From positions 1 to 52,166 of the IMG/VR virus record IMGVR_UViG_3300018019_000014: DNA of 52,166 bases. One strand, written 5' to 3'. The DNA is from a virus (lineage: Duplodnaviria > Caudoviricetes). A model generated the notes under the pieces. It did no database searches and was not told where the DNA came from. It saw nothing but the letters and a program-made list of their open reading frames with translations. Both the position numbers and the translations under genes were made by a program. Positions 8,942 through 40,250 of the stretch are shown here, piece by piece. Every line of letters begins with the position of its first letter. Position 1 is the first letter of the stretch.

Positions 8942-9403
8942 ATGGAAATGAAAGAGGAAGCTCAACCTGGCAGGGGGCCAGCCGCGCCGGCGGGACCGGC
9001 AACGAGCATGAGCGCGGAGCATCCAGAGCCGGCTTGGCTCAGCAACCAACCATCAGCATCCGGCATCACGCCGGGGCGCTGGCAGCCGTATGAGACGTTT
9101 GGGAGCACAAATCGCGGCAAATACGATGCGGTGAAATCCAATCCCGGGGGTGCGGCGGATCTGGTGAAGGTTTGCACGGGTTGCAGCGATGCAGACGCGC
9201 GGGCAATCTCGCTGGTGCCGGAGTTAATCGCGGCGCTGACAGTTTCTGCCGACGCAATCAATCTGAGCTCTCGCGTCGATGACGAGCGGTTGGCATTGCT
9301 CGTGATGCTCGGCGGCGAAGGGCGAACGCTCGCGAAACAGGTCCAAATGCTGCGCGAGGCGGAACGGCGCGCCAGGTCGGTCCTGGCGCGGCTGGACAGG
9401 TGA
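8942..9403 (+). CDS. Hypothetical early protein
   Basis: GGAGG RBS; TPGRW...ADARAISLVPELIAAL resembles the common phage TPGPW/NARLIAAAPEL family. Confidence 0.65.
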   Translation: MEMKEEAQPGRGPAAPAGPATSMSAEHPEPAWLSNQPSASGITPGRWQPYETFGSTNRGKYDAVKSNPGGAADLVKVCTGCSDADARAISLVPELIAALTVSADAINLSSRVDDERLALLVMLGGEGRTLAKQVQMLREAERRARSVLARLDR

Positions 9404-23644: not shown

Positions 23645-24988
23645 TCAACCTCCGTATCCGTATCCGTATCCCGCATAACTGTCACCGCCAACTGGCACAT
23701 TGCCCGAGTACCCAAGGCCGGCATTGCCCGGTGTTGTCGCTGATGGCAGAGTTGTCGAGGCTGTCCAGTTCGTTGCCGGGTCAAGCCCCATGTCGAGATA
23801 ATCCTGCGGCGTCAACCCATACGAATCTTCCAGGTCCATCGGAACGCTTTGGCCGCTGGTGGTTGTGATCCTGTCTGTGCCGGGTGACTCGCTGGCGCGG
23901 CCGTAAAGGTTGGGGTCCATGCCGAGCGCCTGGTAATCGGCTGGGGTCAAGCCGTACTGGTCGGGCGTCTGGCCGACATCGTAGGTCGTGCTTAGTCCGG
24001 GAGGAAGTCCAGAGGCCCCGGCGTCCAGAATGTTTTGGCCGTTTGGTCCGACTATCACGCCCTGGCTGTTGATGTAGCTGCCTACGGGAAACGCACCGCT
24101 TTGGATTCCCGTATTCAGCGCCGTTTGCAACTGACCAAGTTGTTGCGAGGAAAGACCCGCCACGTTTCCCGTGCCAGGATCAATCAACCCTGGCCCTAAC
24201 GTTGCCTGTCCAGTTGCCGGGTCAATGGGGCCAGTTGTCGGCGTCGTTGTCGGCGTTGTTGTCGGCGTCGTTGTCGGCGTTGTTGTCGGCGTCGTTGTCG
24301 GCGTTGTTGTGGGAATAGTAATTACAGGGCTGCTCGTGCCAGTGCCAGGCAACGTAGTTGTGGTTGTTCCCGCCCCGCCGCCACCACCGCCAGCGCCAGC
24401 TTGTGCTGCCCGCTGTGCCAGCGCCGCATACTCATACGCCAACTGTTGCTGTTGCGCGTTCAGGCTACCCATCTGAGCAGGATTGAGAAGTTGTGTCGTT
24501 GGGTCCATCAATTGCGCGACGGGATTGCGCGCCGTCGCCGCGCTGAGTTCTTGCTGGCCGAGGCCCTGCAACTGCTCCGAAGTCAGTCCGAGCGAACGCA
24601 GATAATCGGCTTGGGTGCCCGCGCCCGCGGGCGAGCCGGTTGCAACGCCCCGCTCCGCAGCCTGTTGCCCAAGCAGATTGATCGTGGATTGCGAGACATT
24701 CCCCGCCAGCAAGTCTGCGATGTTCGCGCTGCTCTGAGCTTCCAGTCCCGCCTCGCCGGGGATACGGGCCGCGTTCGCCGCTTGTTGCGACGCGATATTG
24801 AGCTGGTTTATCTGGTTGACCAGTTGCTCAATGGAAGGGAGTCCGGCCAGGTTGCCTTGAGCCGCCGTGCTCGTCAATTGCGTCGGCGAGATGTTCGCCG
24901 GGATACCTGCAGCCGTTAGGGATGTACTTGTCGTGGTGGTTCCCCCAGGGGTGCCTATTGCGGTTCCGGTTGGTGTAAATATGGCCAT
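23645..24988 (-). CDS. Putative ejection/pilot protein with mucin-like Thr-Pro linker
   Basis: Gln/Ala helical N-terminus, (TTPT)n, YGLTP.DY..LG.DP repeat x2, GYGYGYGG end. Confidence 0.6.
   Translation of the reverse strand: MAIFTPTGTAIGTPGGTTTTSTSLTAAGIPANISPTQLTSTAAQGNLAGLPSIEQLVNQINQLNIASQQAANAARIPGEAGLEAQSSANIADLLAGNVSQSTINLLGQQAAERGVATGSPAGAGTQADYLRSLGLTSEQLQGLGQQELSAATARNPVAQLMDPTTQLLNPAQMGSLNAQQQQLAYEYAALAQRAAQAGAGGGGGGAGTTTTTLPGTGTSSPVITIPTTTPTTTPTTTPTTTPTTTPTTTPTTGPIDPATGQATLGPGLIDPGTGNVAGLSSQQLGQLQTALNTGIQSGAFPVGSYINSQGVIVGPNGQNILDAGASGLPPGLSTTYDVGQTPDQYGLTPADYQALGMDPNLYGRASESPGTDRITTTSGQSVPMDLEDSYGLTPQDYLDMGLDPATNWTASTTLPSATTPGNAGLGYSGNVPVGGDSYAGYGYGYGG
24234..24310. repeat. 12-bp tandem repeat encoding (TTPT)n
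   Basis: GTTGTCGGCGT(C/T) about six times. Confidence 0.9.
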
Positions 24989-33535: not shown

Positions 33536-33961
33536 TTATTGGAGTTTGACCCCGAAGGACGCAATCAGCGCCGTCAGGTCGGTTATCGTTTGGTTGGCAT
33601 TGACTACGGCCTGAGCAAAGGCATTGGCCGGCCCGGTGATACTGTTGTTCGTCACTGAGGATGCGGACCACACAGCGCCAGCGTCACAGGCAACGACCAT
33701 CGCGGCCTGAAACTTCTGGTAAGCGGCCTTGACCGCTTGCTCTTGGGCAACGGGGACGGGCGTACCCGCCACCTTCTGGGCGGTGACGTAGGCACCCCAA
33801 AGGTGCATGGCGGTGTCCACCGTCACTTGGGTTGTGGCGGCAGTTTTGTAGGCCGCGCTTTGAGGCGTATTGCAGCCGGTAAGGACCGACAAACCGAATC
33901 CCGCCAAGAGCGGGAGGAGGGTGAATGAGAGAATGACCAAAAGGAGTTTGAACTTTTTCAT
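33536..33961 (-). CDS. Lipoprotein (spanin-like candidate)
   Basis: MKKFK plus hydrophobic stretch plus lipobox LTGC, helical body. Confidence 0.7.
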   Translation of the reverse strand: MKKFKLLLVILSFTLLPLLAGFGLSVLTGCNTPQSAAYKTAATTQVTVDTAMHLWGAYVTAQKVAGTPVPVAQEQAVKAAYQKFQAAMVVACDAGAVWSASSVTNNSITGPANAFAQAVVNANQTITDLTALIASFGVKLQ

Positions 33962-33971
33962 AGCGTTGTTT

Positions 33972-34008
33972 GTTTCAATCCGCGCCCCAGTCCAAACCGG
34001 GGCGAAAG
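33972..34008 (-). CRISPR. Solitary type I-C-like CRISPR repeat, copy 1
   Basis: CTTTCGCCCCGGTTTGGACTGGGGCGCGGATTGAAAC: hairpin plus GGATTGAAAC 3' end; no array, no cas operon. Confidence 0.65.
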
Positions 34009-34043
34009 TGTTGTTTGACGGACAGTTTTCGGACTTTGGTTGA

Positions 34044-34352
34044 TCACTTTTGGACTGGAGTGTTTGGCGGCAGACTCGGCGTGTTTGGCCAGGTGGCAAG
34101 CGTAGGGCCGGACTGCTGCATCGGCGCAGCAGCAGGCGGTGGCGCTGAAACCAACGGCGGCGCTTGCGTTGCCGAATGGCTCCCCGCGAAGATGCTCAGA
34201 AGCCCAGAGAACCAGGAAGCCCCGATGTGGTTGGCGTAGAGGATTCGGCCCACGGCCATCAAACAAAGCATCACGATGGGCGCCCACCTTTGCCAGGCGG
34301 GCGGCAGGGCATTGATGATGTCTTGGGCTGCTGGAGGGATCGAATTTGTCAT
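34044..34352 (-). CDS. Holin-like membrane protein
   Basis: One or two hydrophobic helices, Pro-rich tail, next to the lipoprotein. Confidence 0.5.
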   Translation of the reverse strand: MTNSIPPAAQDIINALPPAWQRWAPIVMLCLMAVGRILYANHIGASWFSGLLSIFAGSHSATQAPPLVSAPPPAAAPMQQSGPTLATWPNTPSLPPNTPVQK

Positions 34353-34385
34353 AGTGGCCGACTTTAGCCCCTGGCCGGGCCGGCG

Positions 34386-34688
34386 TCAACGCTTTTCCGG
34401 GCATTTCGGGTGGCAGGGCAAGCCGTCGAGCTTCTTTGCAAGATCCGAATGTCTCTCAATTTCCCGCGCTTCCAGCAATGACAAGTGCTCTTTCACCGCC
34501 GCATCGCGGTCCGCAATATGCTGGAACTCCTTTCCGAGCCAATACGCCCAACCGGCGACCAGAAGGCCGGCCGCAACAGCGCCGCCCAGGGTTATGTGGG
34601 TGCTTTCGCTGATAGCATCGCCCACCAGCGCGAGGGCGCTTGTGCCAGCGCCGACCAGCGAAGCTCGGATTGAATTCAAGATCATCAA
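34386..34688 (-). CDS. Membrane protein (holin-like)
   Basis: TM segment ITLGGAVAAGLLVAGWAYWLG followed by coiled coil and LPC. Confidence 0.55.
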   Translation of the reverse strand: MMILNSIRASLVGAGTSALALVGDAISESTHITLGGAVAAGLLVAGWAYWLGKEFQHIADRDAAVKEHLSLLEAREIERHSDLAKKLDGLPCHPKCPEKR

Positions 34689-37541: not shown

Positions 37542-39107
37542 TTAAGTGACACTCCACGGCAACGCTACCGTCGTGCAGGACGACGTAACGAGCGTGATGT
37601 TGTTCCCTGAGACAGCCCAGGTGCCCAACGCCCCAACCAGTGAGTTCAGTTGAGCCACCAGGTTGGCCAGGGTACTGGTGCCTGTGATTGGCAGATGCAC
37701 GATTGGGATTTCGTTGCACTGGATCGAGTCCCGCAGAATCTCGTACGTCCCCGTCAGTGAATCCAGGATCGGCGTGAAGGTCAGCGTGACGGGCGCAGTC
37801 GCGCACGGCACGTTCGCGCTGCTGTAATTCTGGGCGTCCGGGTACGGCGCCGAAGCACAGACCGGCAGGTCCACGATGCAGGCCGGCTCGCGCAAGGTCA
37901 GGAACATCTCGGCGAACTCGGGATACTCGCTTTTGGTGCTCAGCGAAAAGTCGCTGATGAACTTGCCCTTGTTCCGCCGGCTGTTGTCCACCGCAATCGG
38001 AATGACAACCCCGTTCACGTCGGTTGCCGTCCCGCAGGTGATGTTGTCCATGACGAACTGCCACTTGCCCGCGAAGTCCCGCGCGGCGAAGGGCATCTCG
38101 GGATTGATGCTGGTCGCGTCCCGCACCAGGCTCATCATGGCCATGCGATGCCAGATGAAGTTCACCTGGATCTGCGCGTTCTCGAAGTCGTTGTTCAGCG
38201 CCTCCTTGATACCCTCGGTGGCCGCGACGTTGGAGTACGGGAACACGAGGTTCAACTGCCAAGTCCCGTCCGCGTTTTGGATGTTGGGATTCAGGAACCG
38301 CAACGGCATCGAGTCGGCTCGGATGCCGTAGTTCCCGCAGCGCCCAGTCCAGCCGTACTTGTGGTACTTTTCGGCTTGGTCGAAGTCCTCAAACCGCCAG
38401 TGATCCGTCAACTCCCCCGAGCCTTCAATCAGGTCCCAGAGGCTTTCCATGTCATTGACGAACTCGAGCATCGGCGCCCCGCCGTGGTTGATGTCCTCGC
38501 CCAGGGCTCCCAGGAGGATCTGCGGATGCACCCGCCGTTGCAGGTGCCGCGCCGTCATCTTGCTGGTCGGCAACATGGACACGTTCAGAATTGTCCCCGT
38601 GGTGTCCCAATACGCCGTGATCGCCTGCAGCCCATTTGCGGCCGTCGCCCACTTCTGGCCCGCGATGCGGACGCCCTCATGCCGAAATCGGTCGCTGGTG
38701 ACGATGCTCGAACAGCGCCGCAGCGTCCGCACGACGTGCGCAAACTGCTGCTTCGCCCGGTCGGCACTCAAAATGAGATCCCAACAGAACAGGTCCGTCT
38801 CGAACGCCTTGCGCTGGAGCCGGTAGCTGTCCCGGGTGAACCCCATCCCGATCTTCTTGCTCGCCGGATCGCACGGCTGCCCAATGCACGGCGCAGCCTG
38901 CACATCTTCCCACGGCCCCGTTAGGTCGGGAAAGACGTTCTCGAATCGGTCGAAGGTGTGTTCAACACCGGCCTGGGCCGGGAAGGAACCTGTGGATACG
39001 TGCCCCACCCAGGTATCCATTGGGTGCAAGCTCCGGATAATTTCGTCATCCAGATGCTCACTTCGGCGGCTTAAAAAGTCTCCGAAGGCAGTGCATGGGA
39101 TCGCCAT
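37542..39107 (-). CDS. Major capsid protein with C-terminal extension
   Basis: 521 aa; follows scaffold/GroES; own promoter and downstream hairpin; strongly GC3-biased codons. Confidence 0.75.
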   Translation of the reverse strand: MAIPCTAFGDFLSRRSEHLDDEIIRSLHPMDTWVGHVSTGSFPAQAGVEHTFDRFENVFPDLTGPWEDVQAAPCIGQPCDPASKKIGMGFTRDSYRLQRKAFETDLFCWDLILSADRAKQQFAHVVRTLRRCSSIVTSDRFRHEGVRIAGQKWATAANGLQAITAYWDTTGTILNVSMLPTSKMTARHLQRRVHPQILLGALGEDINHGGAPMLEFVNDMESLWDLIEGSGELTDHWRFEDFDQAEKYHKYGWTGRCGNYGIRADSMPLRFLNPNIQNADGTWQLNLVFPYSNVAATEGIKEALNNDFENAQIQVNFIWHRMAMMSLVRDATSINPEMPFAARDFAGKWQFVMDNITCGTATDVNGVVIPIAVDNSRRNKGKFISDFSLSTKSEYPEFAEMFLTLREPACIVDLPVCASAPYPDAQNYSSANVPCATAPVTLTFTPILDSLTGTYEILRDSIQCNEIPIVHLPITGTSTLANLVAQLNSLVGALGTWAVSGNNITLVTSSCTTVALPWSVT

Positions 39108-39708: not shown

Positions 39709-39844
39709 GGCTCCGATGTTAATGTGGAAAACCACGTGGAACAACGGCAAAGAAAAGCGCCGGGTTCCACGCCCGGCGCCTGGTAAGCACAAGGGCCATC
39801 TATTGAGTCGCCAGAGTAGCGCAGGGGAAGGGGCCGGTCAAGAG

Positions 39845-39879
39845 GAAAAGAAAGGCGCCGGAGAACAACCACCGGCGCC
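39845..39879 (-). terminator. Intrinsic terminator
   Basis: GGCGCCGG-10 nt-CCGGCGCC followed by TTTCTTTT. Confidence 0.7.
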
Positions 39880-39911
39880 CCACCAGTTGACTCGAATCAA
39901 GAGGACACTAC

Positions 39912-39941
39912 GTTTCAATCCGCGCCCCGTCAAGGGGCGAT
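39912..39941 (-). CRISPR. Solitary type I-C-like CRISPR repeat, copy 2, followed by a 32-nt spacer-like segment
   Basis: ATCGCCCCTTGACGGGGCGCGGATTGAAAC; last 17 nt identical to copy 1. Confidence 0.7.
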
Positions 39942-40250
39942 ATTTGACAATACCGCAAGGAGCAGGCGTTCGTCAATGATCTTGAAGTATTTTTCCTCGC
40001 CGTTGGCCCAGGGGTCGAGCCAGCGCCCCGCCCGGGGGCTGATGAGCACCAGCGCCCCGGGATCGCACGGGTGGGCGATCAGCGTCCCGTTTCTGGCTTG
40101 GCGCCAGATACCAAATCTCACAACGCGGCCACGTTGGGAAACTTCCTGAGCGGCATCAGGGATGGTGATTCCGCCGGGGGAGAGGGCCTCCGGTAAGTCC
40201 ATCGCCAGGAGAACGTAGCCCTGACGGGGCCGGATGCGGTTGCCGCTCAT
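39930..40250 (-). CDS. groES: Co-chaperonin GroES
   Basis: IRP...YVL...SPGGITIPDAAQE....GRVV..G...II.E..LLAVL. Confidence 0.85.
   Translation of the reverse strand: MSGNRIRPRQGYVLLAMDLPEALSPGGITIPDAAQEVSQRGRVVRFGIWRQARNGTLIAHPCDPGALVLISPRAGRWLDPWANGEEKYFKIIDERLLLAVLSNIAP

What the first reader, a model, noticed from the sequence alone, without database searches (positions are those of the whole stretch)
33961..34020. CRISPR-repeat mimic placed 10 nt upstream of a lipoprotein start codon
Seen: CTTTCGCCCCGG-TTTGG-ACTGGGGCG-CGGATTGAAAC then AAACAACGCT-ATG; 17 nt are identical to the copy at 39912, and both are preceded by GTCAAA. Known: type I-C repeats end in a hairpin plus GGATTGAAAC and are cut by Cas5c at the hairpin base; solitary repeat units in phages can act as RNA anti-CRISPRs (Racrs). 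Inference: here the 'spacer' position is the gene's own translation start, so host Cas processing could sponge Cascade subunits on abundant late mRNA, or switch translation of a lysis-cassette gene according to host CRISPR status. I do not know of such coupling being described.
Basis: partly seen in the sequence, partly recalled or inferred. Interest (0 to 1): 0.8.

Follow-up and report, generated by a model that had tools for sequence, protein, structure and literature searches.

The report
Two lone CRISPR-repeat mimics in phage
A 52-kb phage found in peat and soil samples carries two single copies of a bacterial type I-C CRISPR repeat, most likely RNA decoys against the host's CRISPR defence, a kind of element first described in 2023.

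Summary
On the minus strand, unit A (34006-33972) and unit B (39943-39912) each have a G+C-rich hairpin followed by the same 11-nt tail. The shared 17-mer is the 3' end of many genuine CRISPR repeats. Arrays of both length classes, about 32 nt and 37 nt, lie next to type I-C cas genes.

Both units are solitary and point the same way as the genes around them. A lies in an 82-nt gap, 10 nt before the ATG of a lipoprotein gene. B overlaps the stop codon of a GroES-like gene and is followed by about 30 nt and a terminator. The closest relative (L168) has the same layout as B, with a compensatory stem change.

Best reading: Racr-type RNA anti-CRISPR candidates, a kind described in 2023 (PMC10651486). 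The start-codon proximity is not special. Of 27 independent viral single-copy units with this 17-mer, 11 have an ATG-led ORF within 30 nt. No evidence supports a translation switch or a lysis cassette. The host, expression and Cas5c cutting remain untested. This scan has noted such mimics on other DNA before. Verdict: new member of a known kind, moderate interest.

The parts
33972..34006 (-). Unit A: solitary type I-C repeat mimic of the long-stem (37-nt) class. It has a 9-bp stem with one G-U pair (34004-33996 / 33991-33983), a 4-nt loop and an 11-nt tail (33982-33972). The predicted Cas5c cut lies between 33983 and 33982.
   Evidence: Best real repeat found: L019, 33 of 37. The cut site is inferred from PMC8524198.
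33962..33971 (-). 10-nt A/C-rich leader between unit A and the ATG, with no Shine-Dalgarno motif.
   Evidence: SD-like motifs occur before only 7 of 32 crude ORF starts in this phage.
33536..33961 (-). Gene for a 141-aa predicted lipoprotein (lipobox LTGC). Its function is unknown.
   Evidence: No significant PHROG, Pfam or PDB match. GC3 is 0.71, against 0.52 for the in-frame stretch upstream of the ATG.
34044..34352 (-). Upstream gene for a 102-aa protein with a hydrophobic stretch. Its stop codon lies 37 nt before unit A.
   Evidence: Weak holin PHROG hit, E = 8.6e-4. GC3 is 0.69, against 0.57 for the overlapping alternative ORF.
39912..39943 (-). Unit B: solitary type I-C repeat mimic of the short (about 32-nt) class. 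It has a 6-bp stem, a 5-nt loop and the same 11-nt tail (39922-39912). The TGA stop of the GroES-like gene lies in the loop.
   Evidence: Best real repeat found: L054, 29 of 31.
39947..39976 (-). Promoter-like site (TTGACG, 18 nt, TATTGT) ending 5 nt before the ATCGCC of unit B. A similar motif sits at the same distance in L168, in a different reading frame.
   Evidence: 9 of 12 matched; 5 sites found in the region against 2.4 expected, so weak. Alignment.
39882..39911 (-). 30-nt spacer-like stretch between the tail of B and the terminator stem.
   Evidence: No target found.
39846..39881 (-). Terminator-like hairpin (GGCGCCGG / CCGGCGCC core) followed by a U-rich run.
   Evidence: Fold (z = -2.68 for the 246-nt stretch).
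39755..39781 (-). Second terminator-like hairpin.
39930..40250 (-). GroES-like (Cpn10) gene. Its last 14 nt overlap unit B.
   Evidence: Pfam Cpn10, 33.2 bits against a cut-off of 21.1. PHROG 3188, E = 5.3e-6.

Best explanation
Units A and B are solitary repeat units: single copies of a type I-C CRISPR repeat carried by a phage. They most likely act as RNA anti-CRISPRs of the Racr kind.

Proposed mechanism:
1. Both units are transcribed with the surrounding minus-strand genes. B may also have its own promoter.
2. In a host with a type I-C system, Cas5c recognises the base of the stem and the 11-nt tail and cuts between them.
3. Cas5c stays on the tail, which starts the assembly of Cas7 and Cas8c on phage RNA instead of on real guide RNAs.
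4. This titrates the effector complex.

B would yield a complete guide look-alike: an 11-nt handle, about 30 nt, and a 3' hairpin supplied by the terminator. A would load the proteins onto the 5' end of the lipoprotein mRNA.

Shown here: the sequence and structure mimicry, the solitary state, the co-orientation with genes, and recurrence in the phage family.

Inferred: transcription, cutting, protein capture and any effect on immunity.
For: 1. The shared 17-mer is the 3' end of genuine array repeats.

2. Arrays of both length classes lie beside type I-C genes.
- L009 (about 32 nt): Cas5d 6e-41, Csd1 5e-173, Cas7 3e-100.
- L005 (37 nt): Cas5d, Csd1, Cas7, Cas4 and Cas1.

3. An independent model, Rfam CRISPR-DR9, gives the two best matches in the whole window exactly at A and B.

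4. A and B keep the stem base and the whole 11-nt tail, and differ from real repeats in the loop, the distal stem and the 5' overhang. The first set are the features reported to matter for Cas5c. The second set are reported not to matter (PMC8524198 passages).

5. The closest relative, L168 (68% identity in the 521-aa protein), has a unit at the same place as B. It sits right after the upstream gene's stop, followed by 33 nt, a terminator, and the leader of the 521-aa gene. The tail is identical and one stem pair is changed on both sides, G-C to A-T.

6. Two more relatives carry units with the same 17-mer elsewhere in their genomes: L164/L218 and L165/L241 are the same contigs.

7. Most relatives lack the units, as expected of accessory counter-defence. 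Only 1 of 75 has one within 7 kb of the 521-aa gene.

8. A type I-C Racr encoded inside an mRNA, 11 nt after acrIC5, was shown to work (PMC10651486 passages).
Against: - The host is unknown, so a match to the host's own CRISPR type is not shown. None of 1561 spacer intervals from the collected arrays matches the phage beyond 18-21 nt.
- Both Rfam scores (27.1 and 25.6 bits) are below the gathering score of 45.
- A is 33 of 37 (89%) identical to the best real repeat I found, just under the 90% rule of SRUFinder. My repeat set was pre-selected on the 17-mer, which inflates the identities.
- No array in the metagenome collection has A's exact hairpin.
- B overlaps an ORF by 14 nt, and a 79% partial look-alike lies 100 nt upstream. 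Under the published filter B might therefore not count as solitary or intergenic.
- No neighbouring gene is recognisable as an anti-CRISPR protein.
Confidence: 0.6

Rival explanations
1. CRISPR-coupled leader. Unit A exists to control the lipoprotein gene. In a type I-C host, Cas5c cuts the operon RNA, and Cas5c and Cas7 bound from the new 5' end cover the start codon. Translation or stability of the downstream message would then depend on the host's CRISPR status.
For: - Cas5c stays on the handle, that is on the downstream RNA (PMC8524198 passages).
- The start codon lies 10 nt after the handle.
- The leader-type layout recurs: 11 of 27 viral families, against 6 of 27 on the reverse strand and 17% of random positions. 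It is also seen in the relatives L164 and L165.
Against: - Any element in a short gap between co-directional genes ends up near the next ATG. The units fill gaps of roughly 50-100 nt, with no clear preference for the start side.
- The downstream genes are unrelated to each other.
- The only lipoprotein homologue found (L190) has no unit upstream.
- L168 has a similar gene start that overlaps the preceding ORF, without a unit.
Confidence: 0.1
2. Guide RNA rather than decoy. B, and perhaps A, is a one-repeat CRISPR unit whose downstream sequence is used as a guide by the host's Cascade. The target could be the host's own cas or toxin promoter (Cracr type), or sibling phages that lack the insert.
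For: - B has the full layout of a type I-C guide: handle, 30 nt, 3' hairpin. L168 has 33 nt.
- 6 of 27 other viral units have a terminator-like hairpin within 130 nt, against 3% of random positions, at offsets of 30 to 76 nt.
- Viral guide-like RNAs of type I-C are reported (preprint 10.1101/2024.10.29.618823, section 7).
- Earlier notes of this scan (e1-5701035, e1-5496882) read other lone type I-C repeats in this way.
Against: - No target was found for the three spacer-like stretches. I searched 120 bacterial loci, the phage itself, 75 relatives and 45 viral loci, and only matches of 10-17 nt appeared.
- At the one weak match (L168:3906-3921), the three bases before the would-be target are not TTC, which is the PAM I recall for type I-C.
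- There is no degenerate second repeat.
Confidence: 0.12
3. No present CRISPR-related role. The units are relics of past recombination with a host array, or simply stable hairpins that protect or end transcripts and happen to resemble repeats.
For: - Distribution in the family is patchy.
- The exact hairpin of A occurs once in the metagenome collection in an unrelated contig, without the CRISPR tail (L243).
- There are no expression data.
Against: - The single-stranded 11-nt tail has no role in a plain hairpin. Yet it is identical in A, B and L168, while stems and loops differ.
- Hairpin plus tail is expected 0.02 times by chance and is seen twice.
Confidence: 0.15

Closest known systems
Racr RNA anti-CRISPRs / viral solitary repeat units, especially RacrIC1 (Camara-Wilpert et al. 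2023, PMC10651486; I read the abstract, sections 9 and 30, and passages)
   Same: A single repeat copy in a phage, with the repeat's hairpin and tail, lying in or next to a protein-coding transcript. It is of type I-C and is not part of an array.
   Different: - Function is untested here and the host is unknown.
- No acr gene is recognisable nearby.
- There are two units in one genome, mimicking two length classes of type I-C repeat.
- B overlaps the end of an ORF.
- The likely host groups (Verrucomicrobiota, Planctomycetota, Acidobacteriota) are only inferred from where the 17-mer occurs.
Cracr / viral crRNA-like regulatory RNAs (bioRxiv 10.1101/2024.10.29.618823; I read the abstract, section 7, and passages)
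   Same: B and the L168 unit have repeat, spacer-length stretch and 3' hairpin, like a one-guide unit.
   Different: - No second (pseudo)repeat.
- No match of the spacer-like part to any cas or toxin promoter.
- The paper's candidates come from Pseudomonadota, Bacillota and Actinomycetota targets.
Genuine type I-C CRISPR repeats (Rfam CRISPR-DR9, RF01322; arrays L005, L009, L019, L054)
   Same: Identical 17-nt 3' end and a stem-loop directly before the 11-nt handle.
   Different: - Solitary, with no array and no cas genes in the phage.
- The first base, the distal stem and the loop differ.
- Scores are below the Rfam gathering threshold.
Virus-borne mini-arrays used between competing viruses
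   Same: A repeat in a viral genome followed by viral sequence that could serve as a guide.
   Different: One repeat only, and no sibling genome with a matching PAM-flanked target was found.

Membership tests
Type I-C CRISPR repeat (sequence and fold) | 3' tail that becomes the 11-nt handle, identical to that of array repeats | tested here: met
   The 17-mer containing the tail is exact in at least 120 bacterial stretches, many of them arrays. Arrays lie beside Cas5d/Csd1/Cas7 genes.
Type I-C CRISPR repeat (sequence and fold) | Stem-loop ending directly at the tail | tested here: met
   A has a 9-bp stem and B a 6-bp stem, in both the minimum-energy and centroid folds.
Type I-C CRISPR repeat (sequence and fold) | Member of a regularly spaced array next to cas genes | tested here: not met
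   Only two copies, 5.9 kb apart. No array-like repeat family was found.
Rfam CRISPR-DR9 (RF01322) | Score at or above the gathering threshold of 45 bits | tested here: not met
   27.1 bits (B) and 25.6 bits (A). No match at gathering level.
Solitary repeat unit as defined by SRUFinder (PMC10651486, section 30) | At least 90% identity and 90% coverage to a known repeat | tested here: inconclusive
   B is 29 of 31 to L054. A is 33 of 37 (89%) to L019. My repeat set has 69 arrays pre-selected on the 17-mer, and the tool's own database was not available.
Solitary repeat unit as defined by SRUFinder (PMC10651486, section 30) | Intergenic, with no partial repeat within 100 bp | tested here: inconclusive
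   A: intergenic, and its flank scores of 6 and 12 are within background. B: 14 of 32 nt lie inside the GroES-like ORF, and a 23-of-29 look-alike lies 100 nt upstream, a score reached by 0.13% of random windows.
Racr (functional RNA anti-CRISPR) | Expressed as RNA, and bound and processed by the Cas processing enzyme | not testable with these tools
   Needs RNA data or biochemistry.
Racr (functional RNA anti-CRISPR) | Inhibits interference by the matching CRISPR-Cas type | not testable with these tools
   Needs an infection or plasmid-targeting assay.
Racr (functional RNA anti-CRISPR) | Host carries the matching CRISPR-Cas subtype | tested here: inconclusive
   Host not identified. No spacer match. 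The 521-aa protein was found in 0 of 401 + 0 of 401 genomes. The DNA search gave only low-complexity hits.
Racr (functional RNA anti-CRISPR) | Frequent (not obligatory) neighbourhood of acr genes | tested here: inconclusive
   No neighbour matches a family annotated as anti-CRISPR. No dedicated Acr library was at hand.
Cracr / crRNA-like regulator | Spacer part pairs with at least 9 PAM-proximal bases of a cas or toxin promoter | tested here: inconclusive
   No such match in 120 bacterial loci. The real host's locus is unknown.

The most novel reading that the evidence does not exclude
In type I-C systems the cutting enzyme stays on the RNA downstream of the cut. A repeat mimic placed in an mRNA leader, as in unit A and in 11 of 27 other viral families, would therefore turn the phage's own message into the scaffold on which Cas5c, Cas7 and Cas8c assemble. 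That would make leader-type units a distinct class. They would soak up the effector on abundant late mRNA, and at the same time make the output of the downstream gene depend on whether the infected cell has an active type I-C system.
Probability: 0.1. Interest if true: 0.7.

Novelty: new member of a known kind. Interest (0 to 1): 0.36.

Why it matters
If functional, these units would extend RNA anti-CRISPRs to phages of peat and soil bacteria. The likely hosts are Verrucomicrobiota or their neighbours, where no anti-CRISPR has been tested.

They would also be a natural case of one phage carrying two decoys shaped like the two length classes of type I-C repeat.

The survey made here suggests two recurrent layouts for type I-C units: repeat then start codon, and repeat then about 30-50 nt then terminator. 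This gives a concrete, testable question about what the Cas5c-bound downstream RNA does. As an element class it is already known, so the finding is useful but not surprising.

Tried and rejected
Host search:
- 1561 spacer intervals from the collected arrays were compared with the phage. The best matches were 18 nt exact and 20 of 21, and none was full length.
- The 521-aa protein was found in 0 of 401 genomes of the phylum of G001 and 0 of 401 of the phylum of G003.
- 20 kb of phage DNA against 401 genomes gave 95 genomes with weak hits. These were mostly the 12-nt tandem repeat and a conserved stretch near 41.5 kb. The two spacer-length hits I fetched (L250, L251) are not in arrays.
- tblastn of 41 crude window ORFs against the 120 bacterial loci found nothing.

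Expression: no RNA holder listed. The four runs laid are contigs and show no ends.

Exact-hairpin scans:
- A's 22-mer occurs in the metagenome collection once, in an unrelated contig without the tail. One hit in a collection of that size may be chance.
- B's 24-mer is in 0 viral contigs.

Relatives of the lipoprotein and GroES-like proteins sought by peptide patterns: none confirmed.

Guide or homing reading: no targets found. The 16-nt match at L168:3906-3921 is a similar gene start and signal peptide only (BLASTP E = 0.045), and it is not preceded by TTC.

Neighbour proteins: no informative PHROG, Pfam or PDB matches beyond GroES-like, an HNH-type endonuclease, a head protein and a tail assembly protein.

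A joint covariance model of the 52 distinct repeats was abandoned. The alignment (A2) came out right-justified, which misplaces the 5' arms of the two length classes. I used a loose handle-plus-hairpin scan instead.

Literature: I found no description of a repeat mimic coupled to a start codon.
- Search: 549 papers held at least one term, and I looked at the 15 listed.
- Search: 8 papers.
- 'Start codon' and 'untranslated' occur 0 times in PMC10651486, and 'start codon' 0 times in the preprint.
- These are narrow searches.
- Supplements are closed, so I could not check whether this IMG/VR contig is already among the 2,103 viral units listed in the supplementary data of PMC10651486.

The labels 'capsid', 'scaffold', 'portal' and 'terminase' for window genes come from first-reader notes. 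I did not verify them.

Full report
WHAT THE WINDOW IS. The window is a complete virus record of 52,166 bp with direct terminal repeats. The repeat is 123 nt. From about 17 kb to the right end, the long ORFs run on the minus strand. The finding therefore has to be read on that strand.

THE OBSERVATION. On the minus strand, unit A reads as follows:
- a 9-bp stem with one G-U pair (34004-33996 / 33991-33983) and a 4-nt loop;
- the 11-nt tail CGGATTGAAAC (33982-33972);
- 10 nt, then the ATG at 33961.

The ORF from that ATG encodes a 141-aa protein with a signal peptide and the lipobox LTGC. The in-frame stretch upstream of the ATG has no third-position G+C bias (0.52 against 0.71 in the gene). 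The ATG is therefore the likely start.

The upstream gene (34044-34352) encodes a 102-aa protein with a hydrophobic stretch. Its stop leaves an 82-nt gap, of which the unit takes 35 nt.

Unit B has a 6-bp stem, a 5-nt loop and the same tail (39943-39912). Its loop contains the TGA stop of a GroES-like gene (Pfam Cpn10, 33.2 bits).

The 17-nt identity is exact, and the genome has only these two copies. The 17-mer alone is not beyond chance. Hairpin plus tail is: 2 seen against 0.02 expected. Both hairpins appear in the predicted folds.

IS IT A CRISPR REPEAT LOOK-ALIKE? Yes.
- Among 69 arrays with three or more copies there are two length classes. 21 arrays have 37-nt repeats (period 71-72) and 44 have 31-33-nt repeats (period 64-67).
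- Both classes are type I-C. L009 has Cas5d, Csd1, Cas7 and Cas1 next to a 32-nt array. L005 has Cas5d, Csd1, Cas7, Cas4 and Cas1 next to a 37-nt array, and L032 has Cas3-like, Cas4, Cas1 and Cas2.
- A resembles the long class (33 of 37 to L019, a Rariglobus MAG). B resembles the short class (29 of 31 to L054, a Planctomycetaceae MAG). These identities are inflated, because the set was chosen on the 17-mer.
- Of the 14 long-class arrays whose record titles I saw, 9 are from Verrucomicrobiota.
- Independently, Rfam's CRISPR-DR9 model gives its two best matches in the whole window at B and A (27.1 and 25.6 bits). Both are below the gathering score of 45.

WHAT CAS5C NEEDS. According to passages of PMC8524198:
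- It reads the cut site and the nucleotides downstream of it.
- It tolerates changes in the loop and the 5' overhang.
- It ends up at the handle end of the complex.

A and B keep exactly the stem base and the whole tail, and vary elsewhere. The same source implies that after a cut the enzyme stays with the RNA downstream of the unit.

SURROUNDINGS.
- Around A, PHROG and Pfam searches recognise only a head protein and a tail assembly protein further downstream, plus a weak holin hit (E = 8.6e-4) for the upstream protein. There is no endolysin, so 'lysis cassette' is not supported.
- B is followed by 30 nt and a strong terminator-like hairpin with a U-run, then a second terminator. An HNH-type endonuclease gene comes next.
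- A promoter-like site (9 of 12) ends 5 nt before B. The scan found 5 such sites against 2.4 expected, so on its own this is weak.
- Shine-Dalgarno-like motifs precede only 7 of 32 crude ORF starts. The bare leader after A is therefore normal for this phage.

RELATIVES. The 521-aa protein (37542-39107) retrieved 75 related viral loci with 30-68% identity.
- Within 7 kb of that gene, only the closest one, L168, has a unit with the full tail. A loose scan gave 1 hit in the relatives, against 3 in reversed-sequence controls.
- L172 has a hairpin followed by GGATTGAAAC on the opposite strand. I did not follow it up.
- The L168 unit sits where B sits: directly after the stop of the upstream gene, followed by 33 nt, a terminator, and then the promoter and leader of the 521-aa gene.
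- In L168 the tail is identical, and one stem pair differs on both sides (G-C in B, A-T in L168).
- A TTGAC motif lies at the same distance upstream, although the coding frames differ.
- Relatives L172 and L174 have the GroES-like gene and a terminator, but no unit.
- Two further relatives carry units with the same 17-mer elsewhere. L164/L218 and L165/L241 are the same contigs. In L165 the unit lies about 1.3 kb upstream of a homologue of the window's 28901-30805 gene.
- The lipoprotein has one detectable homologue (L190, 35% identity), with no unit upstream.

The units are thus accessory, patchy and recurrent in this family. That pattern suits counter-defence elements and argues against a core role in expressing the downstream gene.

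IS THE PLACE BEFORE A START CODON SPECIAL? The 17-mer occurs in 45 viral stretches.
- I dropped 4 array-like loci. The 41 single-copy loci form 31 families, of which 27 have a stem of at least 5 bp.
- 11 of the 27 have an ATG-led ORF of at least 50 aa starting within 30 nt downstream. The reverse-strand control gave 6 of 27, and random positions gave 17%.
- In several families the unit also lies a few bases after the preceding stop. The units simply fill short gaps between co-directional genes.
- A second layout, a terminator-like hairpin within 130 nt, occurs in 6 of 27 against 3% of random positions. It also occurs in B and L168.

So A's layout is typical for this kind of unit. The validated RacrIC1 is itself encoded 11 nt after acrIC5 on a bicistronic RNA (PMC10651486 passages).

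MOST LIKELY MECHANISM. Both units are Racr-type decoys, as described in PMC10651486 (abstract, sections 9 and 30, passages).
- B, with or without its own promoter, would give a guide look-alike: handle, about 30 nt, 3' hairpin.
- A would load Cas proteins onto the lipoprotein message.
- I put this at 0.6.

The rivals are:
- a true CRISPR-coupled leader (0.1);
- a guide RNA of the Cracr or inter-phage kind (0.12). This idea came partly from the preprint 10.1101/2024.10.29.618823 and from earlier notes of this scan. No targets were found;
- no present CRISPR role (0.15).

WHAT REMAINS UNKNOWN. The host, expression, cutting and any phenotype are all untested. The phage DNA is present, without differences at either unit, in contigs of four public runs. 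Two of them are not flagged as a possible source of the record: X19 (soil) and X20 (peat). X20 covers B only.

COMPARISON AND NOVELTY. This is a new member of a known kind. Viral solitary repeat units were catalogued in 2023 (2,103 on viral sequences, IMG/VR included). Type I-C is one of the four subtypes (I-C, I-E, I-F and V-A) whose Racr candidates were tested functionally. This scan has also noted repeat mimics many times on other DNA.

The modest additions here are:
- two units in one genome, shaped like the two length classes of type I-C repeat;
- conservation of the B layout, with a compensatory change, in the nearest relative;
- the two recurrent layouts among viral units with this tail.

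Noticed in passing
window 40015-40043 (minus strand): Inside the GroES-like gene, 100 nt upstream of unit B, lies a 23-of-29 look-alike of B (G+C-rich hairpin plus a degenerate tail). Only 0.13% of random 100-nt windows of the phage score as high. It is coding sequence (ISPRAGRWLD) and may be coincidence, or a decayed second repeat.
   Followed up: partly
L168:148-204: In the closest relative, the 33 nt after the repeat mimic are a near copy (25 of 27) of the following terminator's 5' half. A 26-27-nt stretch is thus tandemly duplicated right behind the unit.
   Followed up: partly
L243:214-236 and 848-890: An unrelated metagenome contig has the exact 23-nt hairpin of unit A without the CRISPR tail. 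The 3' half of the hairpin plus the same 22-nt leader recurs before the next gene's ATG, so it looks like a repeated intergenic leader element.
   Followed up: partly
L131, L138, L145 (viral contigs): After a 10-bp-stem type I-C unit, the last 9 nt of the tail (GATTGAAAC) occur three times in tandem, directly before an ATG.
   Followed up: no
window 34361-34389 (minus strand): A promoter-like site (TTGACG, 17 nt, TAAAGT) ends 8 nt before the ATG of the 102-aa gene. This would give a leaderless or nearly leaderless message that also carries unit A.
   Followed up: no
window 24222-24325: Seven in-frame 12-nt tandem copies (GTTGTCGGCGTC type) lie in a long minus-strand ORF. This stretch produced most of the weak DNA hits to Verrucomicrobiota genomes.
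   Followed up: no
L148 and L155 (one 74.6-kb IMG/VR contig): A record classed as viral holds type I-C arrays of 35 and 91 repeats with the same 17-mer. It is either a phage-borne array or host DNA in the record.
   Followed up: no
G004:C4:1196551, G003:C34:6195, G005:C183:27339: Single copies of the repeat tail lie far from the arrays in three bacterial genomes that also have type I-C arrays. They could be prophage units or host regulatory repeat-like RNAs.
   Followed up: no
L172 about 9283-9318 (strand opposite to the 521-aa gene): An 8-bp G+C hairpin is followed, after 3 nt, by GGATTGAAAC in a relative. It may be another repeat mimic with a different stem.
   Followed up: no
window, all crude ORF starts: Only 7 of 32 starts have a Shine-Dalgarno-like motif, so the host probably relies little on such motifs.
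   Followed up: no
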